A stretch of DNA of 64,000 nucleotides from Naegleria gruberi (Eukaryota). Made by a program: the position numbers and the translations under genes. The notes beneath the pieces are model-generated. The model saw only the letters and a program-made list of their open reading frames with translations, ran no database searches and was not told the origin of the DNA. Below, piece by piece: positions 9,955 to 59,064 of the stretch. The first letter of the stretch is position 1; every line of letters starts with the position of its first letter. The DNA lies in the NCBI GenBank assembly GCA_000004985.1, contig GG738851.1. One strand, written 5' to 3'.

Positions 9955-10027
9955 GCTGGCGTAGCTCAGTCGGTAGAGCGTTGGTCTAATAAGCCATTGG
10001 TCGCCGGTTCGATCCCGTCCGTCAGCA
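9955..10027 (+). tRNA. tRNA-Ile: tRNA-Ile (anticodon AAT)
   Basis: GCTGGCGTAGCTCAGTCGGTAGAGCG..CTAATAA..GGTTCGATCC..CGTCAGCA. The acceptor pairs at 7/7, and the anticodon loop CTAATAA is typical of eukaryotic tRNA-Ile(AAU). The T stem has one mismatch. Confidence 0.75.
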
Positions 10028-20673: not shown

Positions 20674-20747
20674 TACGCCGTAAGGGAGTCGAACCCTTGA
20701 CCTTCAGCGTGTAAAGCTGACGATCTAACCAACTGATCTAACGGCGC
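20674..20747 (-). tRNA. tRNA-Val: tRNA-Val (anticodon TAC)
   Basis: The reverse complement is GCGCCGTTAGATCAGTTGGTTAGATCGTCAGCTTTACACGCTGAAGGTCAAGGGTTCGACTCCCTTACGGCGTA, with the anticodon loop TTTACAC and a full cloverleaf. Confidence 0.85.
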
Positions 20748-20955: not shown

Positions 20956-21027
20956 GGGACCATGGTCTAGTGGTATGATTCTCGCTTTGGGTGCGAGAGG
21001 CCGTGGGTTCGATTCCCACTGGTCCCC
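20956..21027 (+). tRNA. tRNA-Pro: tRNA-Pro (anticodon TGG)
   Basis: GGGACCATGGTCTAGTGGTATGATTCTCGCTTTGGGTGCGAGAGGCCGTGGGTTCGATTCCCACTGGTCCCC. It has the GTCT/GATT D-stem typical of tRNA-Pro and the anticodon loop TTTGGGT. Confidence 0.9.
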
Positions 21028-28032: not shown

Positions 28033-28151
28033 AAATTTCTTTTTAAAATTCTTTTTAATTTGATTTGTACTAATATTGACAAAAAACTTACAGAGATATT
28101 GACTGGTAGTGAAGACCTCAAATTATAAGAAAAATAATATCAAAAAGCACA

Positions 28152-28226
28152 TGCTACCCGCGCGGATCGAACGCACATCTTCTTACTCCCGATAAGCAAG
28201 ACGCCCTACCATTAGACCAGAGCAGC
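28152..28226 (-). tRNA. tRNA-like gene of uncertain identity (possible tRNA-Ile TAT with a 4-nt intron, or a pseudogene)
   Basis: The minus-strand sequence is GCTGCTCTGGTCTAATGGTAGGGCG TCTTG CTTATCGGGAG TAAGA AGAT GTGCGTTCGATCCGCGC GGGTAGCA. The acceptor, D-arm and T-arm are good (B-box GTTCGATCC). The anticodon stem TCTTG/TAAGA encloses 11 nt rather than 7, so either a 4-nt intron or an expanded loop is present. Confidence 0.5.
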
Positions 28227-29477: not shown

Positions 29478-29768
29478 CCTCCTATTTTTTAATGCAAGCT
29501 TGAAGGTTGTGGATTTTAAGAGGAGGTGTGAGATTGCCAAGTTGTTGTTGGTGTTACATGGAGTGTTGATGAAGAATTCTTTTTTGTTGAATTGTTTCTT
29601 CTTTTTCACCGCCAAACTAACCGTTAGACCGGTTATTAAATATTTTAATTTTTAAAATAAAAAAAATGTAAATGTATCATCACTTCCTAATGGAAGTAAT
29701 ACTTCAATTGTCATTGAGCGGATAGTTTGCTCATACCGCACGACAATGCAAATAACAAAGAAGAAAAA

Positions 29769-39078: not shown

Positions 39079-42000
39079 ATGATATCAACTCGAAATTTCA
39101 TCTCTGTCAATTGTGGTAAGATGATTACTATCAGCTGCAGCAACCAATGTTTATCGTATGTCCTCATGTTGAGCATGCTTCTTTCCATACTTATTGTTTC
39201 AACAACTGTGGCTCAGGAAAGCTTTGTTTCAACTATTGCAGGTGGAGGTGTATGTGATGGTTATTTAGCAACTCAAGCCTCATTGGCATATCCTGGATCA
39301 CCAACTATTGGTCCAGATGGTTCAATTTATATAGCAGATAGTTCAAATCACAGAGTTCGTCAAGTTTATCCGAATGGTACCATTACTACCATTGCAGGAA
39401 CTGGAATTTCAGGTTATAATGGTGATGTCATTCCAGCAACGAGAGCTCAATTGAAAAATCCTGTATCAGTTGCTGTTAATTCGATTGGAGAAGTTTTCAT
39501 AAGTGATAATGGAAACAATAGAATTAGAAAAGTATTGACTAATGGTACAATTATTACTTTTGCAGGAAGTGGACAGACAACTTTTTCAGGAGATTATGGA
39601 TTGGCCACCAATGCAGGAATTAACTATCCCTATGGTATTGCACTCACTAGTATTGAAGAATTGATTATTTCCGATGTAAATCATAATAGAATTCGTAAAG
39701 TTTTAACCAATGGAACCATCTATACCATTGCAGGAAACAATATTCAAGGTTACAATGGAGATAACAAGTTGGCAACAAGTGCTTCCTTGTTTCTGTCCTT
39801 TGGTGTTAGTGTTGATGCAAATGATAATGTCTACATTGCGGACACTGACAATGATAGAATTCGTAAAGTTTTAACCAATGGAACCATCTATACCATTGCA
39901 GGTATTGGAAATAGTGGATTTTCTGGGGATGGAGGTTTGGCAACTGCAGCCAAGATTAGCTCTCCTGAAGGCGTTTCAGTTTCTCCTGAAGGCGAAGTTT
40001 ATTTTGCAGGTTTGTAATTCTTTCTATTCGAAACTTTAACTTTACAAGATACAAGTAATAACAGAATTCGAAAAATTTTGACAAATGGTACAATTTTAAC
40101 TGTTGCAGGAACTAGTTATGGATTCTTAGATAACACAACTGCCAGTCTTGCACTGCTAGGAAATCCTGGACAAATGTTCATTGACAAGAATAGTGGAGAT
40201 GTGTATTTTGCTGATAAAGGAAGTCACAGAATTAGAAAGATTTCTAATGGATTTATTACTTCTGTTGCTGGTTCAGGTTCTGCAACTTTTTGTGGCGAAA
40301 ACATTGCTTCAAGTGCATGTGCTTTAGCTAAACCAAAAGGTGCAGTCATTGATTCATTAGGAAATATTTATATTGCTGGTAAGTTTTATTATAACATAAT
40401 CATACGAATCCTCTTCTTTGCAATATATAGATACAAACAATAATCGTGTGAGAAAGATATCATATTTGGATGGTACCATTAACACCATTGCTGGAACAGG
40501 AAGCAATGGTTATAATGGAGATGGTATCTTGGCAACAAGTGCACAACTTAACAGACCTTCAAGTGTTGCTATGGATTCGGTTGGTAATGTGTTTGTTGCA
40601 GGTATGTACTTCTTTCTATTGGAAACTTTAAATTTCTACAAGATACAAGTAATAACAGAATTCGAAAAATTTTGACAAATGGTACAATTGTAACTGTTGC
40701 AGGTGTTGGATCTAGTGGTTTTAATGGTGATATTTTGGCAACAGATGCAAAATTGAGCAACCCTGTTTCAGTCACTATTGATTCGAATGATAATGTTTAC
40801 ATTGCCGATACTTACAATCATAGAATTCGAAAGATTTTACAGAATGGAAATCTAACAACAATTGTTGGATTAGGATCGAGTGGTTTTAATGGTGATTATC
40901 TATTATCAAACGGAACCAAATTAAACTATCCACAATCCATAGCATTTGATTCGAATGGTAACATGTATATTGCAGGTAAGTTGTTTTTTGTAAACAACTA
41001 ATCAAGTGAAAAATTGATTCCACTAATGACACAGATATGAACAATAATCGAATTAGAAAAATGTTAACTAATGGAACTATTATCACAGTAGCAGGAACAG
41101 GCGTTTCAGGTTATAACGGAGATGGAATATTGGCAACTGTTGCTCAACTCAAATATCCACAAGGAATTGCAATTGAAAATGATGAATTGATTATTGCTGA
41201 TTCTTCAAATCATAGAATTCGTAAAGTATTAACAAATGGAACAATTATCACCCTTGTAGGAACAGGTACTTTGGGATACAGTGGAGATGGTCTGGTTGGA
41301 GCCAATTCACAAATTAATAACCCATCAGGAGTCGTTGTAAAACAAAATGGTGAACTAATTGTTATTGATTCGGATAATAGTAGACTCAGATTGATTTCCA
41401 CACCTCGTCAATGTAATGGAACATTGGCAAGTGATTCAAATGTGTGTAGTGGTGTTGGTATTTGTAGTGCACCTGAGACATGTGATTGTGGAAACTTGTT
41501 TGGTGGTCAATTCTGTGAATATTCCAAATGTTTCGGTATTCTTTCGAATTCATCAAGTGTTTGTTCATCACATGGAATGTGTATTTCCCCAAATACTTGT
41601 TCTTGTAATTCTGGTTTTTATGGATTGAATTGTCAAGTTATGAAATGTTTTGGAATTGAAAGTAATGACACTTTAGTTTGTTCTGGAAATGGAAAGTGTG
41701 TTTCTATTGATTCATGCCAATGTTCAAATGGTTGGTCAGGTTCAGATTGTTCAATTCTTTCATGTTTTAATATCATGGCCAATGATACTGCTCAAGTTTG
41801 CAGTGGACATGGTAATTGCTCAAGTGTGGATAAATGTGATTGTGAATTTGGATGGTCAGGATTGAATTGTTCTGTAAACTCCACAATTCCAGAAACCAGC
41901 AACTCCACAATTCCTAATAACGACACCTCAATCAATACCAATGGTACTATTTTAAACAATTCTTCCACTACTAATGCCACTAGTTCAAATACTACCATCC

Positions 42001-42548
42001 CAACTACTAATCAAACTTCACCTCACTTGAATAATTCTTCAACAATTCCAGAAACAAGCAACTCCACAATTCCAAATAACGACACCTCAATCAATACCAA
42101 TGGTACTATTTCAAATAATTCTTCCACTACTAATGCAACTAGTTCAACAAATAATTCTTCCACTACTGATAGCAATAACAGTACACAAACAAATTCCACT
42201 CTTACTGGACAAAATTCGTGGAAATGTTTCGACATTCCAAATTCGGATTCGACAGTTTGTGGAGGTCATGGAATTTGCATTTCTCAAGATGTTTGTCAGT
42301 GTAAGGCCACTTCAGAAGATGGATATTGGACTGGATCAAATTGTACTTCATGTCAAACTAATTATTGTGGAAGTGGATGTAGAAGTAACATTTGTTCGAC
42401 CAATAATAACATGTATGCATTATTTACCTTAATGGCTGTTCCAGTAGTTGGAGGAATTGGATTAATAGCAGGTTTGGCATTTGGATTGAGATGGTGGTTA
42501 TTGAAACGTCCACAAATGATGAAAACTTCCACCCCTTCTGTAGTTTAA
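39079..42548 (+). CDS. Type I membrane protein: signal peptide, about 11 NHL repeats, 5 Cys-rich EGF-like repeats, a Ser/Thr/Asn-rich stalk and a TM helix; 5 exons (39079..40009, 40049..40378, 40431..40601, 40643..40975, 41035..42548), about 1092 aa
   Basis: Five consecutive ORFs are linked by phase-1 introns (39-59 nt; donors GTTTGT/GTAAGT/GTATGT; acceptors ACAAG|/ATATAG|/ACACAG|). Each intron sits at the same point of the NHL unit (..IAG|DTxNNRIRKxLTNGTI..), and the exon sum is 3279 nt. The EGF-like units read CSGxGxCxxxxxCxCxxGWSGxxCS. The C-terminal TM reads FTLMAVPVVGGIGLIAGLAFGLRWWLL. Confidence 0.75.
41881..42200 (+). repeat. Two tandem copies of a 159-bp coding repeat (53 aa, Ser/Thr/Asn-rich with many NxS/T sequons)
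   Basis: STIPETSNSTIPNNDTSINTNGTI(L/S)NNSSTTNATSS.. occurs twice, with the DNA copies near-identical. Confidence 0.8.
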
Positions 42549-42876: not shown

Positions 42877-44244
42877 ATGAAACGAACCTCTTCCGAAGAC
42901 AACTCTCTCGATACTTTTTCATCATCAAAAAAGCAAAAATCCAATCAATTATTGGAAATGAAACCTCTAAATATTCTCGTTTGTCGGTATGATCCATTTG
43001 TTTTGGGTCATGTATTCAAGTTTTGTTCGCCAATGGATTTGCCATCACTTGCTGTGGTGTGTAAGGATTGGCATGATTTGTACTTTTCCCGTGAGAAGAT
43101 CGTACTCATTCTGAAGGAGTGGGTCGATACTCAATGGAATAACAAGATTTGTTCAGGAAAATTGACATGGACTTGGTCTGTGGAATATAACCCAGAGAAT
43201 GAATATCATTCATTGGCATATTGGTTAAGATTGTTGAATGTATTGAAGGAAGTGAATATAATGATCACAGATGAGCAAGGGAAAAAAGATGATAATGATG
43301 AAGAAGAAGAAAACGAAGAGGAACATGATGACGAAGAGGAAGAACAAGACGTAGAGGAAGATGAAGAGGAAGATGACCAAGAAGATGAAGGAGAGGATGA
43401 AGAAAATGATGAACATGATGATACTGAGGATTTAAAGAAGATATCACATTCTGTAGAGTTTATTGAGATGGGCAATACGAAACTGTGTAAAATCACAACA
43501 TCCTCAAATAGATTTCTCCTAGTTTCGAATAATGGGAATATTATCCGTTTCAAAAGGAAGAAGAAGGAATTGTTATGCTCTTTTTATGGAGGTTTATCAT
43601 ATCCAAGTTTTGAAAATTGTAATTATAGAAGTGATTATTGGGTTTCCCTTGTTCCAGGTAAAAAGGGAATTTTAGTTTTGCAATTAAAACAAATGGTGAA
43701 ATATTTGGGATTTGATGATGAATATTTAGTAGCATGCAATCTCATTGACATTATTGGATTGAAAAAAGCGAAGGTTTCTAATTCAAAGTATACAGATTAC
43801 CCTTGGGATCAAGGAGAAGCTGACGGAATAATAGAATTTGTGCCTTGGGAAATTGTAACTGCGTGCACAACAAGTGATTATGACATATCGCATATTTGTG
43901 AATGTTTGGATGATCGATTTTTCAATAGTTTCGACTTATTCTGCAAGTTAATAGAAGTCAGTACTACCATGTACACTGAATCCATAATCAAGAATATTTC
44001 TCTCAAAGTTGACAGTGAATTTTTCAAGAATAGAGGGTTGTTGAAATATTGTCGTCAGGAAAGAAAATTATTCAAGTTATTGGATGAGTCATTGAGACAT
44101 GATAAGGAATTCCTTAAAGAGGCTCTAAGAGTCAACCCATCCATTCTCAAGTATCTTTTTAAAAAGGAATATACGGATATCATTGAAATTGATAGAGAGC
44201 TGATTTTAGACTGCTTGAATCGTTTAAGTGTAGCTCAGCAATAA
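42877..44244 (+). CDS. Hypothetical protein with an N-terminal F-box-like segment and a long acidic (D/E) tract, 455 aa
   Basis: ATG ORF. The F-box-like segment is LNILVCRYDPFVLGHVFKFCSPMDLPSLAVVCKDWHDL. The acidic run EEEENEEEHDDEEEEQDVEEDEEEDDQEDEGEDEENDEHDD is encoded by a GAA/GAT/GAG-rich DNA tract at 43290-43440. Confidence 0.55.
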   Translation: MKRTSSEDNSLDTFSSSKKQKSNQLLEMKPLNILVCRYDPFVLGHVFKFCSPMDLPSLAVVCKDWHDLYFSREKIVLILKEWVDTQWNNKICSGKLTWTWSVEYNPENEYHSLAYWLRLLNVLKEVNIMITDEQGKKDDNDEEEENEEEHDDEEEEQDVEEDEEEDDQEDEGEDEENDEHDDTEDLKKISHSVEFIEMGNTKLCKITTSSNRFLLVSNNGNIIRFKRKKKELLCSFYGGLSYPSFENCNYRSDYWVSLVPGKKGILVLQLKQMVKYLGFDDEYLVACNLIDIIGLKKAKVSNSKYTDYPWDQGEADGIIEFVPWEIVTACTTSDYDISHICECLDDRFFNSFDLFCKLIEVSTTMYTESIIKNISLKVDSEFFKNRGLLKYCRQERKLFKLLDESLRHDKEFLKEALRVNPSILKYLFKKEYTDIIEIDRELILDCLNRLSVAQQ

Positions 44245-44373: not shown

Positions 44374-47357
44374 TTACATGAGAAAGTTAATAATCGAAAT
44401 GATCAAGATTAAGATAAGTGAACATCTAACATTTGTAGATTGTCCAACAACAGGATTTGAAAGAGAAGATGTGGCATTGATAACTTCAGTAAATGGACTA
44501 CCAGTTGATGGAATGGTAGTTGGAGCAGATGGTTTCTCTGCTAAGGTAACATCCCCAGTAATGACCATACTGAATGCTTGTTTTCCCTTATTGGTGGATT
44601 TGGCTCCAACCTTGACTGTGAAATTACCTTGTGGTAAATTGGAAATTACAATACTTTCTGCAGTGTTGACCGTATCGAGAGTGTTGCCTGTGATGGCTCC
44701 ATTTCCATAATAATATTTCTTTCCAACAACTGCGACAACACTAATGTCGTTGATGAGTTTCTTGGTTTTTACAGAGCTAAGTGTATCAGCAGCAGATGGT
44801 AAATCGTACCAAGCAATGGTAACTTTCAGTGTGGTTACAGAATTGGCCTTCAAAGGAATGTCAACTTGTTGATTGGCATCAAGTGAATATCTATTGGCTA
44901 CGAGAATATTCTTAATTCTGTTCACACTTGCTGAATCAGTGTCAATCTTCAAGACATTTTGTAAATTGATTCTTCCAAAACCATTGTACTTGTTTGGTGA
45001 GTTGAATTGACTCAAATACAAATCAGTACCTCCAATTTGCACAAATCCCTTCATGACTTCTCCTGAGTGCAGAATCATGGCTTTGACCAAAGTCCCTGAC
45101 AAGGTTTGAGAAGGTGAACTATTGAAAATATTGTAATCGACTAATTTCTTCTTATTATCCTTTACCAAGTAGTGTCTTACCAAAGCTAATCAATTATTGA
45201 AACATTAAATGTAAATAATTAAATAAAATCAATGCCAACTACTTACCTGCTGCTCCAGAAACTGCAGGAGTTGCCATACTATATATGCATTGAAAAAGAA
45301 ATGTTAAATAACAAAGCTACACATCTCAAAAGCACTTACCTAGTTCCAGATTTTCCTACAGGATCACAAGAAGCAGTATTCAAAGAACTGATTGTACTGT
45401 AACCTGGTGCAGCAACTGAAAAGATTAATGTTAAGCTTTCAATTGTCAATGAGTGAAATACTTACTATCTGGTTTGATTCTATTATCATAGGTAGGTCCT
45501 TTTCCAGAAAAACTAGCCATATTCTCAAATTCAAAAACGGTATAATTTCTGCTTGTAAAGAACTGCTTGTAATAGGAAGATGGTGCATAGGAAGCGCCAA
45601 CTGTCAATGAATTCTTTGATGTGGATGGATCTCCCAAATTGGAATCAGTTGAGTATTCACCATCGTTACCAGCAGCCATTACAACAGTCACTTCATCATT
45701 TGAACTCAAAAAAGTGTCAACTCTATTACTGTCATATCCATAAAGATTACAATAGTGACAACATCTGGTACCAGTCAATGCCATACAAGAGGCATCAGTG
45801 ACAGCAGCACCTCGAGTATTATCAGAATTCAATTCATAGCATTTACAATCATAATCACACTAATAATGAGATTCAAGTTGACTGATTTTTCATATTATGA
45901 AAACTTACATCATAAGGATTACCACATCCCCAACTGTTACTTGAAATTTTAGATCCAGCATTGGTAAATGCATTAGACAAAACGGTATTCATATCACCAA
46001 TGTATAATCCTCCATTTGCTCCTGCTTGCACATCCACTGCATAGAGTTTGGCATCCTTGGCCACACCAACATTCTTATCCATGACTGTGGTTCCAAGTGT
46101 TTGTGGATATCCAGCAATGGTTCCTGCTACGTGAGTGCCATGACCTTCTCCATCTGTCAAATCACCATACTGTCCATTCTTATTATAGTAAACGACCTTT
46201 CTATAATTCAAATTAACACTTGTCTTGGTGCTTGGTTCACTACTGCCAGTAAAGAGACAATGTCCAAGAGTTATTCCAGTATCGATAACTGAAACAACCT
46301 CAGAGGCACCTGTAATTCCATTATTCCACATGTAGGTATAATTGGATCCACCTCCATTTTGAATCACTTGATTGGCTCCATAATTCTTAATCTCATGAAT
46401 ACGTTGACGAATGACCACATCTACAGAATCATCACTCGACAAGTAATTTAACAATTCCTGACCCATCTCACTTGACATGTCCTCTATTAATCCTTCAAGT
46501 TCTTGATTCATCTTGAAGAACTTTTGAATTTCTTCTCTTCTTTTCAATGATTGAACAATTGGAGAATCAAATTTTCCTTCTTTGATCAATTTCCAAACTC
46601 CGTAATCAAAGTTTGCGAGTGTGACTTGAACAGCATGAGTTTCACTTTGCCAATCGAGGTCGAATAGAGAGTTGGCTTGATCTCTGATGAATTCACGAAT
46701 GATAGTTTCGTCTTGTTGAGTGGAAAGTGCAGTTTCGGCAAGTTTCGAATTATGAATGGATTGTTGAATTTGTTGAATGTTTAGTTTGGACAAGGATCGA
46801 GTCATTTTTTGAGTATAACTGGAAAGGTACCAATTTCTCAATCTATTCATCGTTTGCAATCTTTCCATTTCGTTTAGTTTACTATCTAATACAATCTTCA
46901 AGCCACCAAGTTTCAACGAATCCAAACTAAGTTTCGTAAATGATTTCTTATCTGAATTCGAAACCTTCTTGATCCATTCAATATTCAATTTAGCAAAATT
47001 ATTATTCGAAAGCTCTTGAATCTGAAGTGTTGTGAGTCTTGTAGTAAAAACTGGAATGTCGGAATGAAATTGAAATTCCTTGTAATTGTCAACCTTCATC
47101 AATTGTGCCATTCTATTGAGAAAGTCATCTGTCATGATGGTATTATCACGTATTTTGACATGTACGAGCATTCTTTGGGTGTTTGAAATTGTTTGTGTGG
47201 TTTGTACATTTAATTTTGGAGTGTTGGAAACTGTTTCGAATAAATTTTCTACATGGTTGTATGTTTCCAATAGTTTGGAAGGTTCTTGTTGTAGTGAGAA
47301 TCCAATGCAACAAAGGAGTGCTGCAAAAAGTATCAATTTGGCAGCACCTAATGTCAT
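44374..47357 (-). CDS. Subtilisin-like serine protease (peptidase S8) paralog B, 5 exons (45909..47357, 45466..45859, 45340..45415, 45247..45278, 44374..45185), about 920 aa
   Basis: It has the same architecture as paralog A. The Asp motif is VIDTGITLGHC, the His motif is GHGTHVAGTIAG, the Asn motif is VVMAAGNDG, and the Ser motif is GTS|MATPAVSGAA|ALVRHYL. Introns are 49, 50, 61 and 61 nt with GTAAGT donors, and the exon sum of 2763 nt is in frame. Confidence 0.8.
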
Positions 47358-47666: not shown

Positions 47667-50600
47667 CTAGTAAAACGATTTCCTACATAGTCCAACAACT
47701 ACGTTACAATCTTCTGGTAAATCTTCTCCTTCGTTTCGTAATTCTTCGTAATCCAATAATTGATTTTTAACTTCCACTAGGTCTCTGAATAATAGATCTG
47801 AACTGTTTGGATAGAGTGGATGGTCACTGGAATAGAGAACTTTAAAAGCAATAAAATTAACCCTTTCGTATGGTGAAATTTCTACCTCAACTGGTTTTCC
47901 TAAAAACAAAAATTGTCTATATAGTTTTTCAATTCTGTTTGAAATATCAGGAGGATATAATTCCACTTTGAGTAGCTGTTTTTCGAATCCCCTCCGAAAC
48001 CTGATGTTAGTGATATTAACTGAGTTGGCTGAATCCTCCCTTACTGGTTTGCACCATTTTTGTATTTGTAATTTTTTTTCCTCACGTCTCAAATCGTCCA
48101 ATAAAAGTAAATCCTTTGGTTGAACTGGATGGTAGGCGTCATGATAGAAATTTCTCGTAATTGGATTAAAACTACCAACTCTTTGAGTGCTTGGTTCTAT
48201 TGTTATCCATTGAATTCTATTCGATACGTCTGATTTATCCAAGGAATCGGTAGCATTGAGAATATAGTCCAAATCATTGAGAGAATGAATAAGGAATTTA
48301 CACTTATTTTTCTGCAAGGTTTTATCCAACATTTTAGGTGTGAACTTGTCGTACTTTAAAATAGTTAGATCCAGATAGTCTGATTTCTTTTCTACAATTT
48401 CTTTAGACAATTCCAAATGCTTGGATCTCAAAGATTCATCATTATAGTAGGAGCCAAGGAGCAACTTGGGATTTCTGCTTCTGTATTTAATTGTAATTAA
48501 AGAATTGAATTCAAGAAGAAACATACCTGCAAGCAAAGTCATAGAGAAGCAGTTTTGCCAATCCCTCAAGTTTGTCCTTCAAGTGTGAGCACACAACTCT
48601 TCTAGGATAATGCAAATATTGATTTTTTACCAAACTATGATGGTATCCTGGTACTGCACAAGAGAATCCTCTTTTAGCATACTGTAGATGAAAAAAATTA
48701 TTATATATACAAATGATCTCCTTAATCTCGTTGATATATGACTTACCTTAAACAGCCTATAAGTATAAGTAGTAGATTGCCTATCTACATCAACAAGATT
48801 TGTTCTGTGTGAAAGAGCTCTAATAGCTCTATCGCTGCACCAAACAGTTGATCCATCAAATCCTATTGTACAACTATCTACATCAAATCCCAAAAGTATT
48901 TCTAAAAGAATCATAAAATTAACCATAAAAAGCATAATTGAAATACATACCAGCTGGTGATTTGTATATACGAAGTACTATTTGAATAGGAGGTAATCTA
49001 TACATGTAAAAAGTAACAGCATATTTTGTTCGAACAACCAAAATGTCATCATTGATGAATTCTTGTTTTGCTTCACCGAAATATTGAGATACCTTACTTT
49101 TTTCTCCCCAAATTATATACTTTTCTTCTCTTACAAACCTAGTGTCTGATGATTTGAGAATGGACAAGTTTTGTTTAACAACCTGATAAATGTGCTTAAT
49201 TTTCAGTTCTGCTTCTTCCTCAGTCATGGCATAGAGGAATAAATCAATATCTGATTTTTTAAAGGCATGAGGAATATTAGGATCTGCTACTTCTCTCGCA
49301 TTTGGGACAGAATCTATGCTAGTTGTTGATAAGTTTTTAGAGTCTATTGTTTTGCGGCTATTATGATTGAAAAATTCAAATCTGTGCAAATGGTCATTCT
49401 CAACAAAAAAGCTCTTTCTGAAACTAGCTCCAACAACGTAAAAAGTATCAGAATCTTTGAATTCTTTATCCTTAAGTCCTTCGATATCGTTTTCAATTTT
49501 AACAGGTGTTGCTTGTGCAATAAATGCTTGATCTTCTACTGGAATTTCTTTCAAACAACATCCCAAGACACTACCTCCTAATTTAAATATTAAAAAAACA
49601 AATTGAGGAACAAGATTAACAATACTACGTACCTGCAACGAAAACACCAGACCAATCCATGCCATCCAACAATCTCTTAGTTAAATTCGAAAAATTATGT
49701 TTGAAGGTTTCCAAATTAGAAACAAGACATGTTTTTGGAGCTTGTTTGGAATAGGTTGTGACATCACATAAATTCAATAGCTTTGGACAATCAGAAAAAT
49801 TGATTTTAAACTTTCCCTTTGACTGAATCACATCTTTGACTTCAAAGAGAGGAGATAGGAACAGATAGGGAACTTTCAATAATTCATTATTCCTATCTTT
49901 CACAAATAATTCTCTTAATTTGTCTTCTCGTTCTTTGAGTCTAATGTTTTCTATAGAGAGCAATTCAATAGGATATCTGCATGGATCCAGATAATCCTTG
50001 GTCATAGTCTCCAATCCATAAAACTTGGCTTCCAAAAAGAGTTGACTTTTTCTTTCATTTGACATACTACGTGGGAAATGGTTGAATTTACCATGTGAAA
50101 TTAAGTATCCATGAATCAGTCTGAATAAATCCGGATTTCTATCAATGAAAATTTGTCCCTTATGATTGAGCTTGAAGGATGGTGATTGGATATATTTGGT
50201 AATAAGAAAATTGTCAAATTTTGCCAAAGAAGAAAAGGGTATGGAATAGAGCTGACCTGATACATTCACATTTACACTTGCATCTTGTGAGTTGTGATTA
50301 ATAAAATTTTGGTACTTTTCAGCAAGTTGCTTGGCAAGTAATTGCGAACTTTCTCTAGATTTTTCTGTTTGAGAATTCATATTTCTAATAGATTGATCCA
50401 ATAATTCTGTATTAACTCTATCTTTAACAATCTTGTCGCATTCACTTCTATCAGCATTGCACTCATTCAAATGATACTTGACAATCAAGTCAGCAATATA
50501 TTCCTTCAATTCGTTCAATTTGAAAAATTCTGCCTCCTTTTCAATATCTCTCAATTGATCATAATTTAACACATCAATGCCAATGGCATCAACTTGTCTA

Positions 50601-51013
50601 CTCCTCAAATATTCCAAAATAAACTCAAAAACATGTGGATTTCTATCTTTCAAATCCGAAACTTGCACCTCAGCAATTTCCTTCACCGTATTTCTGCATG
50701 TATGAAACTCTACATTGCCAACTTGTAAAATCATCATATCATCCTGCATGGTACGCAACCTATTAACTATCATCATTTCTTTTTCAGAATCTTCATCATC
50801 ACAACCATCATTAATATTATTATTTAATTTTCCCAAAATCCTTTCCGATTGCTGAATTTCTTCTTGATCATGAATATAAATTCTATGAAACCGATCGATC
50901 AATTCGCTCGTATAACTCTCTCCCGAAGGTTCTTGTTGTTCACCATTATCACGATCATCTGTTTTGAAATCTTGTATAGACTGCTGAGAATTCGCTTCAA
51001 GATGTCGCTTCAT
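47667..51013 (-). CDS. Tandem BTB/POZ (T1/KCTD-type) domain protein with a large uncharacterised C-terminal region; 5 exons (49633..51013, 48951..49577, 48747..48901, 48527..48681, 47667..48480), about 1043 aa
   Basis: Four consecutive minus-strand ORFs are joined by GT..AG introns of 55, 49, 65 and 46 nt (donors GTACGT/GTATGT/GTAAGT/GTATGT), and the exon sum is 3132 nt. The BTB-like segments are MILQVGNVEFHTCRNTV..NPHVFEFILEYL and QLYSIPFSSLAKFDNFL..FIDRNPDLFRLIHGYL. The C-terminal part contains EILLGFDVDSCTIGFDGSTVWCSDRAIRAL of unknown family. Confidence 0.65.
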
Positions 51014-51243
51014 TTTTTTTACATTTAAAAATTTCCACAGAATATTGGAAAATCAAACATTTTACAATGGACCATTTAATTTACAATTAATGGCCAATAC
51101 CAACATAAATTTATGATTCTGGAATTGCCTGGTTAGTACCTTTTTATACTCCCAACTTCCAGCTCGGAGTTGACAATCGGAGAATGAATAGTTTTAAATT
51201 AACTTAATCTATTGTGAACTCGTCATTTCTTGCTTTTAAAAAA

Positions 51244-52557
51244 ATGAAATCACTTCTCCTCCCTCTCACCATTCTCCTCTTTTTAATTTCATCCCATGTC
51301 CTGTCGCAAGTCAATGTCAAATCAGTCAATTGGCTTCAAGGTAATCATGACGAATTTCAAACAAATCGTCTTCAATTATTGAAATCAACTCCAAATTTTA
51401 ACATTACACTTCAGGGTAGTCCAACAATTTATTTTGACAATTTTTTAGTGATTGCTGACGTTCAGAGAAATATTTTACTCACGAATTATGCAGTTTACGA
51501 TGGTGAAAAGTTTCCACAATTAATGGATTTTGGTTTGGTTAAGGTTGATTTGACAAGTGGCAATTTGATTAAATTGAATTTTGACACTGACAGACCAGCT
51601 TTTAGTTTTTCAGCAGTTTCTCATGCAGTGATGAGTCCACAAGGTGTTTATTACTTTGCACTTTCTAGACAACATGCTGGATTGAATTTTGTCTTTTCAT
51701 ATAATTTGACAGGTGGCAGTAATAACTTGGGTTATTCCAATTATTTTTCAATTCCTGATGGTGTTGAAGTAGATGGACTTGCATTTGTTGATAACACTCT
51801 TTATGTGTCAAATGCCATTGCAATTGAAGCTTATACACCTGACATGATCATGAAATGGAGAATGCCAACAGGTTTCACATATGGACCTGCATCCAATTTG
51901 ATTACTACTCAAGAAAATGGAAAGAATATTCTCTATTATGCAGTTCAAAATACCATCTTTCGTTTAGATACTACGACAACAGTTGTTTCACAATATCAAA
52001 TTGGAAATGTTGGCGCCAAATTTATTTCCTATTTGGGAAGTGGTAATTTGTTGGTTGTTGCCAGTAATGATGATAGCAGTGAAGATTTCATCTATGCTGT
52101 AAATGTACTCAATAGAAGTACATTGAAATTACAAGTCAATCAATCTGAACTTGGTAGAATTGTCAAATGTTCCAATTCATTGAATATTCAAACAAGTCCA
52201 CTTTCAACTTTCTCAATTATTTCATGTGGAAAACATAAAGGAACTGAAAGAGACAAGAATGCAATTGGTATCTTACTTGATACAACTGGAAATCCAACAT
52301 TCTCAGTTGTCTGGCATTTACCAATTCAAGCAAATGATGTTCGCTTCTCAGCCACTCAAAATGATAAGCAAATTCTAATGACCAATGATTTTGGATATAT
52401 TGTCTTGGATATTCAAAGTGGAAAGATGATTTCTGCAAAGAAATCAACTATTGCCAATTCATCATGTAAGGTAATTACTGCAATCAATGGAAAATTCTAT
52501 TCAGTTTGTTCAAGTTCTTATAATGGCGTTGTTACTCTTGCCTCTGATTTGATTTAA
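51244..52557 (+). CDS. Secreted hypothetical protein (signal peptide MKSLLLPLTILLFLISSHVLSQ), about 437 aa
   Basis: The track ORF starts at GTG (51214), and the first ATG is at 51244 with a cleavable signal peptide. It has no recognised domain. Confidence 0.5.
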   Translation: MKSLLLPLTILLFLISSHVLSQVNVKSVNWLQGNHDEFQTNRLQLLKSTPNFNITLQGSPTIYFDNFLVIADVQRNILLTNYAVYDGEKFPQLMDFGLVKVDLTSGNLIKLNFDTDRPAFSFSAVSHAVMSPQGVYYFALSRQHAGLNFVFSYNLTGGSNNLGYSNYFSIPDGVEVDGLAFVDNTLYVSNAIAIEAYTPDMIMKWRMPTGFTYGPASNLITTQENGKNILYYAVQNTIFRLDTTTTVVSQYQIGNVGAKFISYLGSGNLLVVASNDDSSEDFIYAVNVLNRSTLKLQVNQSELGRIVKCSNSLNIQTSPLSTFSIISCGKHKGTERDKNAIGILLDTTGNPTFSVVWHLPIQANDVRFSATQNDKQILMTNDFGYIVLDIQSGKMISAKKSTIANSSCKVITAINGKFYSVCSSSYNGVVTLASDLI

Positions 52558-52896: not shown

Positions 52897-52967
52897 CTCG
52901 AGTGCCGGGAATTGAACCCGGGTCGCCAGAGTGACAGTCTGGAATGCTACCACTATACCACACCCGA
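52897..52967 (-). tRNA. tRNA-Asp: tRNA-Asp (anticodon GTC)
   Basis: The reverse complement is TCGGGTGTGGTATAGTGGTAGCATTCCAGACTGTCACTCTGGCGACCCGGGTTCAATTCCCGGCACTCGAG. The anticodon loop is CTGTCAC and a 5' T is typical of eukaryotic tRNA-Asp. Confidence 0.85.
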
Positions 52968-54168: not shown

Positions 54169-55398
54169 ATGCAAGCACAACAACGAATCACAGTGTTGGT
54201 ATGTGAGGTCGGAGAGGATATCTACTCGAAACAAATTCCTCGAGTGGGATCATCACATTTTGATGGAAATTTCGGAATTAAAAGTAAAAAGATGATGAAT
54301 GTATTGGTAAATGCTAGAGTTGGGGAAATTAGAGAGGACATTGCTAATAATATGTTTAATTATTCGGATCATGATTCAGAAACAGCTATTGTTGAATATT
54401 TACTTGGTATGAGAGATCAACAGGATGGAAGTTTTATTTGGTTTGAGGATGATGAAATGATTTTAGATCAAGATTTAGTATCAAGCCTTTGTGGACGTCG
54501 TTTGATGATTAAAAAGAAAACAACAAACAAGACAATCAAATCCGATTTATTCAGATTTCCCAAGTATAGTACTGAAAATGTTTTGAAATTGCTGAATAGT
54601 GGAAATTTGGAAAAGTATTCTCCTGAGGAACAGTTGATTAGAACAGAATTGGCTGCTTGCTATCGTTTGTTTGATTTGTTTGGATGGACTGATACTGTCT
54701 ATGGACATTTAACTGCAAGAGTTTCAGATGGTGAAAAGACTCATTTTCTCATTAATCCTTTCGGTCTTCATTATAGTGAAATTACTGCATCAAGTTTGGT
54801 TAAGGTTGATATTGATGGTGAAATTGTTGACCCTGGCTCAACAGGAGATTTGTTTGGAATTAATAGAGCTGGATATGTTATTCATTCAGCTGTTCATGAA
54901 GCTAGAGAGGATGTTCTCTGTGTCATGCACATGCACTATGCTCCATGTGCAGCTCTTTCATGTATTGAGAAGGGTTTTGATAAGACTCTCTCTCAGACCA
55001 GTTCAATTATTGGAGATGTTGCCTATCACAAAACTGAAGGAATTGCAGTCAATGAAGAAGAACGAAAGAGATTGCAAAACGATCTTGGATCCATCAAGAA
55101 GATTCTCATTTTGGAAAATCATGGTGTTGTGACATGTGGAGAAAGTGTTGGAGAAGCATTCCTCTCCATGTTCATCTTGTCTGAATCATGTAAAATTCAA
55201 AGTGAGGCCATGTCCATGAAATCAGGTATGAATTCACACATTATTCCAGTTGAGGAATCCATTTCCAACAAATCCTTCGATATTGCTCACGGTTTTACAA
55301 AGGAGGGTTTTGGAAGAAAGGAACTCTGCTCCTATATGAGATATTTAGATTACTTGTACCTTAGTAATTCTTCACCAATTCCACATTATAGAACCTAA
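54169..55398 (+). CDS. Class II aldolase/adducin-domain protein with an N-terminal extension, 409 aa
   Basis: The ATG ORF core reads GWTDTVYGHLTARVSDGEKTHFLINPFGLHYSEITASSLVKVDIDGEIVD..GYVIHSAVHEAREDVLCVMHMHYAPCAALS, matching the Aldolase_II fold (compare MTRu-1-P dehydratase and the adducin head). Confidence 0.65.
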   Translation: MQAQQRITVLVCEVGEDIYSKQIPRVGSSHFDGNFGIKSKKMMNVLVNARVGEIREDIANNMFNYSDHDSETAIVEYLLGMRDQQDGSFIWFEDDEMILDQDLVSSLCGRRLMIKKKTTNKTIKSDLFRFPKYSTENVLKLLNSGNLEKYSPEEQLIRTELAACYRLFDLFGWTDTVYGHLTARVSDGEKTHFLINPFGLHYSEITASSLVKVDIDGEIVDPGSTGDLFGINRAGYVIHSAVHEAREDVLCVMHMHYAPCAALSCIEKGFDKTLSQTSSIIGDVAYHKTEGIAVNEEERKRLQNDLGSIKKILILENHGVVTCGESVGEAFLSMFILSESCKIQSEAMSMKSGMNSHIIPVEESISNKSFDIAHGFTKEGFGRKELCSYMRYLDYLYLSNSSPIPHYRT

Positions 55399-57390: not shown

Positions 57391-59064
57391 ATGTCATCAG
57401 CAAATCATCAAGAATTTGATAACACGAGACCAACCTATGTTCCAACAGATACTCAATCAATCTATGATCAAATTGTGGCAGATAATACATCACCCTACAC
57501 TGTCTATTTTAGACAATTATTCATGACTTATCCATTTCTATTATTCTTGTGTTTTTTAATTTATTATTGTGTTCATTCGAATAGTTTATTTGATGAAGTT
57601 CGTGTTTACTTTTCTTCCGATGCTTCGAAAAACATGTCATCAGAAACAGCAATGAATAATTCAAATAATGATGATTATGAAGATGATGATTATCTTGGAG
57701 AGGGAGAGGATTTACAAGACAATCATGATAATAACAACACATCCGAGAGAAAGAAATTCAACTTTCAATCACTTGTAAAATTATGTCCATCAATGACTGG
57801 TAATCTATTGACTGAGAACTCTGCAGATTTTCTCAAATTATTTAACAATGATCCAATCAAACAGCAAATGGTCAATCAAGCTAATAACACTCTTCACAAC
57901 AAACCTTGGTCTTTCAATACGATATTGTTTGGACCAAATTCGTTTGATCAGACTTGTCTGTATCGATATCCAATGTTTTTTGGATGGTCTGGTTATGCTC
58001 AATCAATAATCTCTCGGTTTATGAAGGGAAGTTTGTGGAATTTAATATTTAACAGATTGAATTCAAAGAATGTTGAAGGAAAATTCAAGAATTGGACAAG
58101 TAAACAGATTACAATTGATAGGGATGGAATGAAATACTACTTTACTGTATTGGAAAGAAAGAAAATGAATGAGAATAGAGAGAAGGAAATTTCCTTCTTT
58201 ATTGTTCCAGACATTGATGGAGCTTTTGGAACAAATACTCCATATATTGATAATTTTGTAAATTACGTTTGTGGAGAATCCAATCCTTTGAAATTGGCCG
58301 AACACACCAAGAGTTCATTCAAGAGATTAATCATTTACAATAGGGAGGGAAGAGATTCCACATTGAAAATTATCAATCCAAATGAATTCATCATGCTAGG
58401 AAATGCTTCAGGATTATCTGAATGTCTAGCTGATTTGAAGCAAAAATTGGATTTGAATGAAAAGTTATTTGGAGTTGGTTGGGGGTTTGGAGCCAATTTA
58501 CTATTGAAATCACTTTCATTGAACAAGGAATTAGTCAATCAATTATTTATTGGAGCTATTTCCGTATCAAATCCATTCGATATTCACAAATGTTTCAAGA
58601 ATTTCAATAATAATTTCATTTACAACCACTTACTTCATTCCATGAAAAAGATTGTCGAACTCAATTGGTCAACTTTCCAAGATTCCAAACTTGACCTGAA
58701 ATCCATACTAAACTCCACCACCATTTCACAATTTGACAATCAATTTACCATGAAATTATTGCCAAACACCAATCAAGATCTTGATGATTTCTACAAGGAA
58801 CAAAGTTCTTGCAAAATTCTCTCCAATGAAATCCAAATCCCAATTCTTGCAATTCATGCCAATGATGATCCCTTGTGTGCGCCATCGGTTTTCAACAACA
58901 CGGTCATGCCTGCCTGCCTGTACGGAGATAACATTCTCCTCATTAAGACACTTAAGGGAGGAAATAGAGCATTCTTCTCATCGGGCTACATGTTGTTCAG
59001 TGCTAATATTTCATTTGATGAGAGAATTATTTTTGATTTTATTGAAACTCTTCCAAAACTTTAA
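57391..59064 (+). CDS. Alpha/beta-hydrolase (ABHD1/ABHD3-like) protein with the nucleophile elbow GVGWGFG (Ser replaced by Gly), 557 aa
   Basis: ATG ORF with an N-terminal TM helix. The C-terminal half aligns to the ABHD3-type pattern LLGVGVSMGGMLLL as LFGVGWGFGANLLL, and to the Asp motif xxADDPxxP as HANDDPLCAP. Confidence 0.55.
   Translation: MSSANHQEFDNTRPTYVPTDTQSIYDQIVADNTSPYTVYFRQLFMTYPFLLFLCFLIYYCVHSNSLFDEVRVYFSSDASKNMSSETAMNNSNNDDYEDDDYLGEGEDLQDNHDNNNTSERKKFNFQSLVKLCPSMTGNLLTENSADFLKLFNNDPIKQQMVNQANNTLHNKPWSFNTILFGPNSFDQTCLYRYPMFFGWSGYAQSIISRFMKGSLWNLIFNRLNSKNVEGKFKNWTSKQITIDRDGMKYYFTVLERKKMNENREKEISFFIVPDIDGAFGTNTPYIDNFVNYVCGESNPLKLAEHTKSSFKRLIIYNREGRDSTLKIINPNEFIMLGNASGLSECLADLKQKLDLNEKLFGVGWGFGANLLLKSLSLNKELVNQLFIGAISVSNPFDIHKCFKNFNNNFIYNHLLHSMKKIVELNWSTFQDSKLDLKSILNSTTISQFDNQFTMKLLPNTNQDLDDFYKEQSSCKILSNEIQIPILAIHANDDPLCAPSVFNNTVMPACLYGDNILLIKTLKGGNRAFFSSGYMLFSANISFDERIIFDFIETLPKL

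What the first reader, a model, noticed from the sequence alone, without database searches (positions are those of the whole stretch)
47667..51013. Large 5-exon gene: tandem BTB (T1-type) domains plus an unclassified C-terminal domain
Four apparently separate ORFs assemble into one gene of about 1043 aa through four GT..AG introns. The N-terminal third has two KCTD-like BTB/T1 domains. The remaining approx 650 aa, including a conserved-looking EILLGFDVDSCTIGFDGSTVWCSDRAIRAL segment spread over two small exons, matches nothing I can name. It may be an undescribed domain attached to a Cullin-3-adaptor-like module.
Basis: partly seen in the sequence, partly recalled or inferred. Interest (0 to 1): 0.5.

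Follow-up and report, generated by a model that had tools for sequence, protein, structure and literature searches.

The report
Naegleria BTB–Gad2 nucleotidyltransferase–WWE gene
The four ORFs form one real five-exon Naegleria gruberi gene, and its "unclassified" C-terminal two-thirds is a nucleotidyltransferase domain of the Gad2 family (named after a phage anti-defence protein) followed by a divergent WWE domain, so the protein is a new member of catalogued but biochemically unstudied families.

Summary
On the minus strand, 51013-47667, five exons joined by four GT..AG introns (55, 49, 65 and 46 nt) give an in-frame 1043-aa protein. All four junctions fall inside conserved motifs and align without gaps to an uninterrupted homologous ORF. 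The N-terminal third has two BTB_2 (T1/KCTD-type) domains; the first is shortened.

The family is large: 8266 clusters at 50 % identity, in fungi, amoebae, Heterolobosea, stramenopiles and giant viruses. No member has a known substrate.

The best mechanistic guess is an oligomeric, WWE-guided nucleotidyl transferase that acts on nucleic-acid ends. This is an inference.

Novelty: new member of a known kind. The locus seems to lack a public protein model.

The parts
47667..51013 (-). Whole gene: 5 exons (51013-49633, 49577-48951, 48901-48747, 48681-48527, 48480-47667, the last including the stop codon). It encodes 1043 aa.
   Evidence: The junctions are validated by gapless alignment to homologues.
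49578..49632 (-). Intron 1 (55 nt, GTACGT..TAG). It splits codon G461 of the AGGS motif.
48902..48950 (-). Intron 2 (49 nt, GTATGT..TAG). It lies between KSPA and EILLGFDVD.
48682..48746 (-). Intron 3 (65 nt, GTAAGT..CAG). It lies between RLFK and YAKRGF.
48481..48526 (-). Intron 4 (46 nt, GTATGT..CAG).
50489..50737 (-). BTB_2 (T1/KCTD-type) domain 1, about aa 93-175. It is shortened: only profile positions 46-89 match, at aa 122-169.
   Evidence: 25.7 bits, cut-off 21.4. The homologues P0001, P0006 and P0010 also have two BTB_2 stretches.
50003..50275 (-). BTB_2 domain 2, aa 247-337 (full-length match).
   Evidence: 41.3 bits alone. The PDB sequence hits are KCTD16, SHKBP1 and Kv4 T1.
48129..49939 (-). 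Gad2-family (PF26128) Pol-beta-fold nucleotidyltransferase region, about aa 359-890. It spans exons 1-5 and includes the family-specific C-terminal extension with the SDY and PxTQ..GSFNP..FYxDAY motifs.
49570..49633 (-). NTase motif A, first half: G461-G462-S463 (hGGS). Codon 461 is split by intron 1.
   Evidence: A and G are invariant in alignments A1 and A3. The motif aligns to the AGG[TA] of phage Gad2.
49297..49521 (-). Lineage-specific, predicted disordered insert (aa ~480-554) between GGS and DxD.
   Evidence: pLDDT is below 50. The insert is absent from compact family members.
49243..49251 (-). NTase motif A, second half: D570-I571-D572, the putative metal-binding carboxylates.
   Evidence: Invariant in A1 and A3. 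Aligns to DLD/DVD of phage Gad2.
48982..48984 (-). Invariant Q659 (IQIVLR). Horder et al. proposed the equivalent Gln of the Pandoravirus protein as the substitute for the third metal ligand.
48876..48890 (-). G674-F675-D676-V677-D678. This is the family counterpart of class II motif B (RRD), here xFD.
   Evidence: Invariant G, F and D. Aligns to the FDF of phage Gad2.
48664..48758 (-). R718-L-F-K721 | Y722-A-K-R725-G-F727, the invariant R/K/Y/R/G block. It is split by intron 3 (48682-48746).
   Evidence: aligns to the RVQKYxxKGY of Gad2.
47784..48011 (-). Divergent WWE domain, about aa 930-1005.

Best explanation
This is a single, intron-containing Naegleria gruberi gene for a 1043-aa multidomain enzyme. 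Its domains, in order, are:
- an acidic N-terminal tail;
- two T1/KCTD-type BTB domains separated by a coiled-coil linker;
- a Gad2-family (Pfam PF26128) nucleotidyltransferase of the Pol-beta fold, carrying a ~75-aa disordered insert;
- a divergent WWE domain.

Shown: the gene model, the domain identities, the retention of every family-invariant residue (AGG, DxD, Q, GFD, R..K-Y..RG), and the wide distribution of the family.

Inferred:
(1) The NTase is catalytically active and transfers an NMP from an NTP to a hydroxyl acceptor using the DxD-bound metals.
(2) The acceptor is most likely a nucleic-acid 3' end. The nearest folds are CCA-adding enzymes, poly(A) polymerases and TENT5, and one family member is fused to a PNKP-type 3'-phosphatase and kinase.
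(3) The BTB pair makes the protein oligomeric and may dock it to Cullin-3.
(4) The WWE domain targets or regulates the enzyme through an ADP-ribose- or adenine-nucleotide-type ligand, such as poly(ADP-ribose).

My confidence is about 0.9 for the architecture, about 0.6 for an active NTase, and about 0.3 for the nucleic-acid-end acceptor and the WWE-guided targeting.
For: Gene model.

BTB_2 x2. The same tandem occurs in the homologues P0001, P0006 and P0010.

NTase:
- 107 homologues, almost all tagged PF26128, and the family is named 'Gad2'.
- hhalign of the eukaryotic profile against one verified Gad2 gives Prob 91.8 %, E 7e-7. Against a 9-sequence Gad2 profile it gives Prob 96.6 %, E 6.7e-10 over 153 columns that include GGS, DxD, Q, FD and R..KY..G[FY].
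- 19 of 27 family members hit phrog_1614 'nucleotidyltransferase' (best 2.5e-11) and 13 hit phrog_4400. Verified Gad2 hits the same two PHROGs.
- The invariant residues are listed.

WWE. Homologues with significant Pfam WWE: P0002 at 1.5e-10.

Context from fusions in the family: PNK3P+AAA_33, F-box, UBA, MYND, PAH, histone, Ank, TPR and SAM.

Independent literature: Pandoravirus BTB+NTase proteins give HHpred 95 % to the PolyA_pol head domain. They have RRD replaced by DFD and a conserved Gln 16 residues upstream of the F, the same spacing as Q659-F675 here.
Against: - No member of the eukaryotic or giant-virus branch has been assayed. The mechanism of phage Gad2 itself is still unknown (PMC12904381).
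- The canonical third carboxylate of Pol-beta NTases was not identified.
- The GGS-to-DxD spacing is about 107 aa here and about 25-35 aa in compact relatives, against the canonical 9-13.
- Profile comparisons to class II CCA/PAP sequences were not significant, and family profiles find no PDB sequence.
- The query's own WWE region does not reach the Pfam WWE model, and its ligand-binding residues could not be verified.
- The query on its own does not hit the phage NTase PHROGs. With its inserts excised it hits them only marginally (E 0.008 and 0.013).
- The tail model is only moderately confident (pLDDT 63).
- No expression data were available.
Confidence: 0.6

Rival explanations
1. Conflict enzyme. 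The Gad2-type NTase works in host-virus or other genetic conflicts, as the phage prototype does against Gabija. It would modify nucleotides, nucleic-acid ends or an ADP-ribose-derived signal to switch a nuclease or immune pathway on or off. BTB and WWE would be the sensing and assembly modules. This overlaps with the best explanation but differs in biological role and possibly in acceptor.
For: - The family is named for a verified phage anti-defence gene.
- Relatives occur in giant-virus MAGs, with several copies per genome (16 loci; four in GVMAG-M-3300008224-9). They also occur in Marseillevirus LCMAC201.
- Full-length viral ORFs were read.
- Hosts of giant viruses are rich in paralogues: Acrasis has at least 5, plus Naegleria lovaniensis and Willaertia.
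- Divergence is fast: the best hit to this gene is 41-46 % identical, and the N. lovaniensis hit is 30-32 %, whereas a neighbouring aldolase is 73 % identical.
- The closest homologue's contig has an ADP-ribosyltransferase-toxin-like neighbour (PF18648).
- SPbetaL7 Gad2 is toxic when expressed.
Against: - There is no functional data for any eukaryotic member.
- A conserved ~1700-1900-aa fungal ankyrin orthologue group looks more like a housekeeping or regulatory protein than an arms-race gene.
- Gene neighbourhood carries little meaning in eukaryotes.
- Gabija has no known eukaryotic counterpart.
Confidence: 0.2
2. Cullin-3 substrate adaptor with a pseudo-enzyme. The BTB pair recruits Cul3, and the NTase-like and WWE regions serve only as substrate- or ligand-binding modules (for example for PARylated proteins) without catalysis.
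For: - BTB_2 proteins of the KCTD type are frequent Cul3 adaptors (established knowledge).
- Other family members carry F-box or UBA domains.
Against: - The putative catalytic GGS, DxD, Q and FD residues are invariant across 27-64 diverse members and are present here. That is not expected of a pseudo-enzyme.
- Many members are stand-alone NTase domains (for example P0055, 402 aa).
- T1-type BTB domains also serve purely as oligomerisation modules, as in Kv channels.
Confidence: 0.12
3. tRNA CCA-adding or repair enzyme, as Horder et al. proposed for the Pandoravirus BTB-NTase proteins.
Against: - Class II motifs B (RRD) and D (EDxxR) are not conserved: they are GFD and YxxRL here.
- The body and tail tRNA-binding domains are not recognisable.
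- Profile comparison to class II sequences is not significant.
- Multiple paralogues fused to signalling domains are unlike a housekeeping CCA enzyme.
Confidence: 0.06
4. Gene-model artefact: the ORFs belong to two or more separate genes, or the locus is a pseudogene.
For: No transcript data were available. The exact 1043-aa product is absent from the public protein collection, and no N. gruberi protein was retrieved for this locus.
Against: All four junctions restore conserved motifs and align gaplessly to an intronless homologue with the same BTB-BTB-NTase-tail order. The frame is maintained, with no internal stops over 3132 nt.
Confidence: 0.02

Closest known systems
Phage Gad2 (Gabija anti-defence 2; Pfam PF26128; Yirmiya et al., bioRxiv 10.1101/2023.05.01.538930)
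   Same: The NTase core is homologous: hhalign 96.6 %, E 6.7e-10 over 153 columns. The shared motifs are AGG[ST], DxD, IQ[IL][IV], Y.SP.EI..FD, C..[FY]D and R..KY...G[FY]. Both hit the same PHROG families, phrog_1614 and phrog_4400.
   Different: Gad2 is a ~400-aa stand-alone phage protein with canonical 11-aa GG[ST]-to-DxD spacing and an unrelated C-terminal half. The Naegleria protein adds two BTB domains, long inserts, a family-specific extension (SDY, PGxQ..GSF) and a WWE domain. Pairwise similarity is too low for BLAST. The anti-Gabija function is meaningless in a eukaryote. The mechanism of Gad2 is unknown.
Pandoravirus 'cluster 7' BTB + class II-like NTase proteins (A0A2U7UAG2; Horder et al., bioRxiv 10.1101/2023.12.02.569716)
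   Same: BTB followed by an NTase. Motif B RRD is replaced by xFD. A conserved Gln lies 16 residues upstream of the F, as with Q659 and F675 here. Conserved basic residues lie downstream. There is no canonical third carboxylate.
   Different: Their BTB resembles BTB-BACK/Kelch-type (PF11822) rather than BTB_2. Their C-terminal domain is not a WWE. I could not obtain the sequence, so family identity is inferred from motif spacing and was not tested directly.
Class II CCA-adding enzymes and bacterial poly(A) polymerases (PF01743)
   Different: The sequence-profile comparison is not significant. The RRD and EDxxR motifs are not conserved. No body or tail domains are present.
TENT5/FAM46 non-canonical poly(A) polymerases
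   Different: Only 8-13 % identity. There is no sequence-level link. TENT5 is a metazoan family without BTB or WWE domains.
KCTD/SHKBP1-type BTB_2 proteins (Cul3 adaptors, T1 oligomerisation domains)
   Same: Pfam BTB_2 match above threshold. The PDB sequence hits are KCTD16, SHKBP1, KCTD9 and Kv4 T1.
   Different: The domains are in tandem and the first is truncated. The partner domain is an enzyme rather than WD40 or a C-terminal KCTD domain. Cul3 binding is untested.
WWE domains of RNF146, DTX1/Deltex, HUWE1, TRIP12 and PARP11/14
   Different: The Naegleria copy is too divergent for the Pfam model. The first Trp positions are not conserved. Ligand specificity is unknown. I found no description of a WWE attached to an NTase.

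Membership tests
BTB_2 / T1-KCTD type BTB (PF02214) | Match to the Pfam model above the gathering score | tested here: met
   56.9 bits against 21.4, in two stretches. Domain 2 alone scores 41.3 bits with a full-length match. Domain 1 alone scores 25.7 bits and matches only the C-terminal half of the profile.
KCTD-like Cullin-3 substrate adaptors | Binding of the BTB oligomer to Cul3, and tetra- or pentameric assembly | not testable with these tools
   This needs pull-down, SEC-MALS or a complex prediction. Only domain homology is available.
Gad2 family (Pfam PF26128) | Match to the PF26128 model | tested here: inconclusive
   The model is not in the local Pfam copy. There is indirect evidence: the homologues at E 4e-138 to 1e-5 are tagged PF26128 in precomputed annotation.
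Gad2 family (Pfam PF26128) | Sequence homology to experimentally verified Gad2 | tested here: met
   hhalign of the eukaryotic profile (query as first row) against B. laterosporus Gad2 gives Prob 91.8 %, E 7e-7. Against a 9-sequence Gad2 profile it gives Prob 96.6 %, E 6.7e-10. Both share phrog_1614 and phrog_4400.
Gad2 family (Pfam PF26128) | Inhibition of the Gabija defence system | not testable with these tools
   This is a phage-bacterium phenotype. It has no obvious eukaryotic equivalent.
Pol-beta superfamily nucleotidyltransferases | alpha/beta NTase fold | tested here: met
Pol-beta superfamily nucleotidyltransferases | Signature hG[GS]x9-13Dh[DE]h | tested here: inconclusive
   VAGGS and SDIDLF are present and invariant. 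However, they are separated by ~107 aa here and ~25-35 aa in compact eukaryotic members. Phage Gad2 has the canonical 11.
Pol-beta superfamily nucleotidyltransferases | Third metal-binding carboxylate on the adjacent strand | tested here: inconclusive
   No conserved D or E was identified. Invariant Q659 is a candidate substitute, by analogy with Horder et al..
Class II CCA-adding enzyme / poly(A) polymerase (PF01743) | Motifs B (RRD) and D (EDxxR), and a significant profile match | tested here: not met
   hhalign Prob is below 1 %. There is no Pfam PolyA_pol hit. The motifs read GFD and YTYRL. I do not file the protein as a member; the similarity is in fold only.
WWE domain (PF02825) | Match to the Pfam model | tested here: not met
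   The query gives no hit at E up to 1 or up to 10. Four of nine orthologous tails do hit, best 6.6e-12. P0002 hits at 1.5e-10.
WWE domain (PF02825) | WWE fold (beta-beta-alpha-beta-beta-beta-beta half-barrel) | tested here: met
WWE domain (PF02825) | Binding of iso-ADP-ribose, ADP-ribose or ATP | not testable with these tools
   This needs ITC or a pull-down. Conservation of the ligand-binding residues could not be established from the shallow alignment.

The most novel reading that the evidence does not exclude
Gad2-type nucleotidyltransferases are an ancient conflict-enzyme family shared by phages, giant viruses and their protist and fungal hosts. In Naegleria, the BTB-Gad2-WWE protein would read an ADP-ribose-type signal through its WWE domain. 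It would then nucleotidylate nucleic-acid ends, or an ADP-ribose-derived or nucleotide messenger, to control a nuclease or immune pathway. That would be a eukaryotic counterpart of the still-unexplained anti-Gabija activity, and the eukaryotic domain fusions (WWE, PNKP, histone) would point to the substrate of phage Gad2.
Probability: 0.12. Interest if true: 0.75.

Novelty: new member of a known kind. Interest (0 to 1): 0.38.

Why it matters
The gene adds an apparently unannotated 1043-aa protein to the reference genome of Naegleria gruberi.

It also shows that a domain a careful reader could not name belongs to a very large enzyme family: about 8,000 clusters at 50 % identity. The only member with a tested biological role (anti-Gabija) is a phage anti-defence protein whose mechanism is unknown.

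The eukaryotic and giant-virus branch carries informative fusions: tandem BTB, WWE, PNKP-type phosphatase and kinase, F-box, UBA, ankyrin and TPR. These give testable hints that the family acts on nucleic-acid ends or ADP-ribose-linked substrates. The hints could help solve both the Gad2 mechanism and the function of a conserved ~1800-aa fungal 'ankyrin repeat protein'.

In itself the locus is an ordinary member of this family. It is not a new kind of system.

Tried and rejected
- The local Pfam copy found only BTB_2 in the query. The PF26128 model is not in that copy.
- phmmer or hmmsearch of the query and of the family profiles against PDB sequences found only BTB/T1 hits, ankyrin contamination, or nothing.
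- hhalign of the family against E. coli Cca alone, and against a 5-sequence class II profile (E. coli Cca and PcnB, and the Bacillus, Aquifex and Planococcus enzymes), was not significant. One run was wasted on a wrong option. I therefore rejected class II CCA/PAP membership.
- tblastn of a compact family member (P0055) against 50,697 phage genomes gave no match.
- NCBIfam has no Gad2 model, not even for verified Gad2.
- The literature search for 'PF26128' gave nothing. Searches for Naegleria+BTB+NTase gave nothing relevant.
- The afdb50 fold library was unavailable.
- Exact-sequence look-ups of window proteins for contig identification failed. The organism was identified instead through a neighbouring aldolase gene.
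- There are no paralogues of the gene within the window.
- I considered and rejected separate genes or a pseudogene (junction homology) and a prokaryotic or viral origin of the window (100 % match to N. gruberi, spliceosomal introns).
Full report
**1. Observation**

The window is AT-rich (about 33 % GC) and eukaryotic. A neighbouring ORF (54169-55398) is 100 % identical to Naegleria gruberi protein XP_002681018.1, so the window is N. gruberi genomic DNA.

Reading the strand shows four short introns with GTA[C/T/A]GT donors and AG acceptors. Splicing them gives these exons: 51013-49633, 49577-48951, 48901-48747, 48681-48527 and 48480-47667. The introns are 55, 49, 65 and 46 nt. The result is an uninterrupted 3132-nt CDS encoding 1043 aa.

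The junctions are supported by more than GT..AG. They rebuild the motifs VFVAG|GSVLG, KSPA|EILLGFDVD, RLFK|YAKRGF and DFACR|SRNPK. All four align without gaps to the closest homologue, P0001, which is a single uninterrupted 1158-aa ORF on its contig.

One correction is minor. The EILLGFDVD...RAL segment lies in exon 3 alone, not across two exons.

**2. N-terminal third**

Pfam BTB_2 (the T1/KCTD type) scores 56.9 bits against a cut-off of 21.4, in two stretches. Scanned separately, residues 247-337 match the whole profile. Residues 122-169 match only its C-terminal half, so domain 1 (about aa 93-175) has lost an internal segment. PDB sequence hits are KCTD16, SHKBP1, KCTD9 and Kv4 T1 domains. 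The same BTB_2 tandem occurs in the homologues P0001, P0006 (Acrasis) and P0010 (N. lovaniensis).

**3. The 'unclassified' region is a Gad2-family nucleotidyltransferase**

A database search with residues 369-1043 found 107 homologues (best E 4e-138). Nearly all carry the precomputed Pfam tag PF26128. This model is missing from the local Pfam copy, which explains the empty scan. The contig look-ups give its name as 'Gad2'.

Gad2 is the second Gabija anti-defence protein of SPbeta-like phages. It is 400 aa long, AlphaFold predicts a nucleotidyltransferase domain, and knocking it out makes phage SPbetaL7 sensitive to Gabija (bioRxiv 10.1101/2023.05.01.538930). Its mechanism was still listed as unknown in February 2026 (PMC12904381).

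I took verified and homologous Gad2 sequences from that paper's Supplementary Table 10 and compared profiles. The eukaryotic core profile has the Naegleria sequence as its first row (A3).
- Against the B. laterosporus Gad2 alone, hhalign gives Prob 91.8 %, E 7e-7.
- Against a nine-sequence Gad2 profile, it gives Prob 96.6 %, E 6.7e-10 over 153 columns.
- The alignment pairs AGGS with AGG[TA], SDIDLF with NDLDVYF, IQIVLR with IQLIH, YKSPAEILxGFDVDxC with YESPKEIFKAFDFTVC, and R..KYAxRGF with RVQKYEDKGY.

Independent support comes from PHROGs. Nineteen of 27 family members hit phrog_1614 'nucleotidyltransferase' (best 2.5e-11) and 13 hit phrog_4400. Verified Gad2 hits the same two families. The Naegleria core alone is too disrupted by inserts to hit them. 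With the inserts excised it hits marginally (E 0.008 and 0.013).

**4. Fold**

An AlphaFold2 model of residues 340-1043, built with 63 homologues, has pTM 0.72. Its core is well defined and it has a disordered insert at about aa 480-554.

At the sequence-profile level I could not link the family to class II enzymes. hhalign Prob is below 1 % against E. coli Cca or a five-sequence class II profile, although the greedy alignment follows the order of motifs A-E. The class II motifs RRD and EDxxR are replaced by GFD and YxxRL. I therefore file the domain under the Pol-beta superfamily and the Gad2 family, not under class II CCA/PAP.

Every residue that is invariant in the 27-64-sequence alignments is present in the Naegleria protein: A460, G461, D570, D572, F574, Q659, G674, F675, D676, R694, R718, L719, K721, Y722, R725 and G726. 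That argues for a functional enzyme.

A canonical third carboxylate was not found. Horder et al. reached the same conclusion for BTB+NTase proteins of Pandoraviruses. They proposed a conserved Gln that lies 16 residues upstream of the conserved F of a 'DFD' motif, and the Q659-F675 spacing here is the same. Their HHpred gave 95 % to the PolyA_pol head domain (bioRxiv 10.1101/2023.12.02.569716). The Pandoravirus cluster is therefore very probably the same family. I could not obtain its sequence to test this.

**5. C-terminal WWE domain**

- The C-terminal tails of nine BTB-containing homologues align with an invariant Glu.
- Four of those tails hit Pfam WWE (best 6.6e-12). The Naegleria tail alone does not.
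- The tail profile hits the RNF146 WWE at E 0.003.

Residues ~930-1005 are thus a divergent WWE domain. Its ligand cannot be inferred.

**6. Family context**

A full HMMER scan of 1.84 billion cluster representatives finds 8266 family members at E up to 1e-3, and 5640 at E up to 1e-10. Many are ~1700-1900-aa fungal 'ankyrin repeat proteins' with the NTase at the N-terminus. They come from Dothideomycetes, Agaricales and Zoopagomycota.

Other architectures seen are:
- BTB_2+NTase(+WWE) in Heterolobosea, diatoms and metagenomes;
- TPR+NTase in chytrids;
- F-box+NTase in Planoprotostelium;
- NTase+Ank+UBA, NTase+Ank+MYND and PAH+NTase+Ank;
- SAM+NTase and NTase+histone fold;
- NTase+PNK3P+AAA_33, a PNKP-type 3'-phosphatase and kinase.

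The taxa also include Anaeramoeba, Pelomyxa, Ectocarpus and Diacronema. Sixteen giant-virus loci encode relatives, with up to four per MAG. Full-length viral ORFs were read, and Marseillevirus LCMAC201 has a homologue.

No animal, plant or characterised model-organism member appeared.

**7. Mechanism**

The following points are shown: one gene, tandem BTB_2 domains, a Gad2-type NTase with intact conserved residues, and a WWE fold.

The following points are inferred.
(a) The domain transfers an NMP from an NTP to a hydroxyl using the DxD-bound metals. This is the superfamily chemistry, and the residues are conserved.
(b) The acceptor is most likely a nucleic-acid 3' end. The nearest folds are RNA 3'-end transferases, and there is a PNKP fusion in the family.
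(c) The BTB pair oligomerises the enzyme and might dock Cul3, by analogy with KCTD proteins. F-box and UBA fusions in relatives point the same way.
(d) The WWE domain targets or regulates the enzyme through an ADP-ribose-type or adenine-nucleotide ligand.

The rivals are these:
- a role in virus-host conflict, which is compatible with the chemistry and is supported by the giant-virus copies, the paralogy and the fast divergence;
- a catalytically dead Cul3 adaptor, which the invariant active-site residues disfavour;
- a CCA-adding or tRNA-repair enzyme, for which the motifs are not met;
- an artefactual gene model, which the junction homology disfavours.

**8. Novelty and verdict**

The domain families are catalogued, and the BTB+NTase combination has been described in Pandoraviruses. 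Homologues in N. lovaniensis, Acrasis and Willaertia sit in databases as 'BTB domain-containing' or hypothetical proteins. The precomputed annotation of P0002 already reads BTB_2 + Gad2 + WWE. This locus is therefore a new member of a known kind.

Two points may be worth recording. First, the 1043-aa product is not in the 15-billion-protein collection, and no N. gruberi protein was retrieved for the locus even though N. gruberi proteins are in that collection. The gene seems to be unannotated or mis-modelled in the reference. Second, the eukaryotic and giant-virus breadth of the Gad2 family, and its WWE and PNKP fusions, are not mentioned in the Gad2 papers I read. They could guide work on the unknown Gad2 mechanism.

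Interest is moderate (0.38).

Noticed in passing
window 54169-55398 (+): The class II aldolase/adducin ORF of 409 aa is 100 % identical to the N. gruberi model XP_002681018.1 (NAEGRDRAFT_30991). That model is only 297 aa, so it covers 73 % of the ORF and may be truncated at the N-terminus. This match identifies the window as Naegleria gruberi.
   Followed up: partly
window 47667-51013 (-): The exact 1043-aa product is absent from the 15-billion-protein collection. No N. gruberi protein was among the 107 hits to its C-terminal 675 aa, although N. gruberi proteins are in the database. The locus appears to lack a correct public gene model.
   Followed up: partly
window 2607-2677, 5807-5879, 9955-10027, 20674-20747, 20956-21027, 28152-28226, 52897-52967: Seven tRNA genes (Trp, Lys, Ile, Val, Pro x2, Asp) are scattered among protein genes in 64 kb. 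tRNA-Asp lies about 1.9 kb upstream of the gene's start.
   Followed up: no
window 45873-47357 (-) and 36694-38172 (-): There are two ORFs of similar length (494 and 492 aa), each with a subtilase (Peptidase_S8) domain at the same position (aa 352-477). They are probably paralogues and probably first exons of larger genes. One lies immediately downstream of the BTB-NTase gene.
   Followed up: no
window 948-2504, 8532-9884, 42877-44244, 39079-40017, 41037-42548, 28263-29615, 19061-20581: The neighbourhood is rich in signalling and adaptor genes typical of Naegleria: F-box+LRR, LRR, F-box+DUF4116, teneurin-like NHL and EGF repeats, Ras/Roc GTPase and RGS. Several large ORFs have no Pfam match (13356-15683, 22804-24942, 24947-26767, 26778-28121, 51214-52557, 57391-59064).
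   Followed up: no
L019 (contig of P0001), 4783-5244: The closest homologue of the gene (41-46 % identity, same architecture) sits on a 5.4-kb metagenome contig of 33.7 % GC as an uninterrupted ORF. Its start overlaps the upstream ORF by 11 nt. The next gene downstream has a Tse2-type ADP-ribosyltransferase toxin domain (PF18648). This compact layout might be viral. An ADP-ribosyltransferase next to a WWE-bearing enzyme is suggestive but may be chance.
   Followed up: partly
P0023 (ENA contig, 841 aa): This family member is fused to PNK3P (aa 494-646, E 2.7e-31) and an AAA_33 kinase (aa 687-785). This is the phosphatase-kinase arrangement of PNKP, with the Gad2-type NTase where mammalian PNKP has its FHA domain.
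   Followed up: partly
P0109-P0235 (one search list): A strikingly uniform group of ~1700-1900-aa fungal 'ankyrin repeat proteins' carries the Gad2-type NTase at residues ~100-400. It occurs in Ascomycota, Basidiomycota and Zoopagomycota, so it looks like a conserved fungal orthologue of unknown function.
   Followed up: partly
P0289 and P0262: There are two odd database labels. A BTB_2+Gad2 protein on a 131-kb contig is labelled 'Patescibacteria group bacterium' MAG; it is probably a mis-binned eukaryotic or giant-virus contig. A chytrid family member is named 'Protein mono-ADP-ribosyltransferase parp4' although only PF26128 is recorded for it.
   Followed up: no
L004 3001-3648: The tblastn match to the family (35 % identity over query residues 6-343) on this giant-virus contig is not contained in any ORF of 60 aa or more under the standard code. 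It could be a pseudogene, an interrupted gene or a sequencing problem.
   Followed up: no
window 32394-32579 (+): There is a weak tblastn similarity (E 0.11, 31 % over 62 aa) to the second BTB domain, inside a DUF4139-containing ORF (31740-33623). It is probably chance.
   Followed up: no
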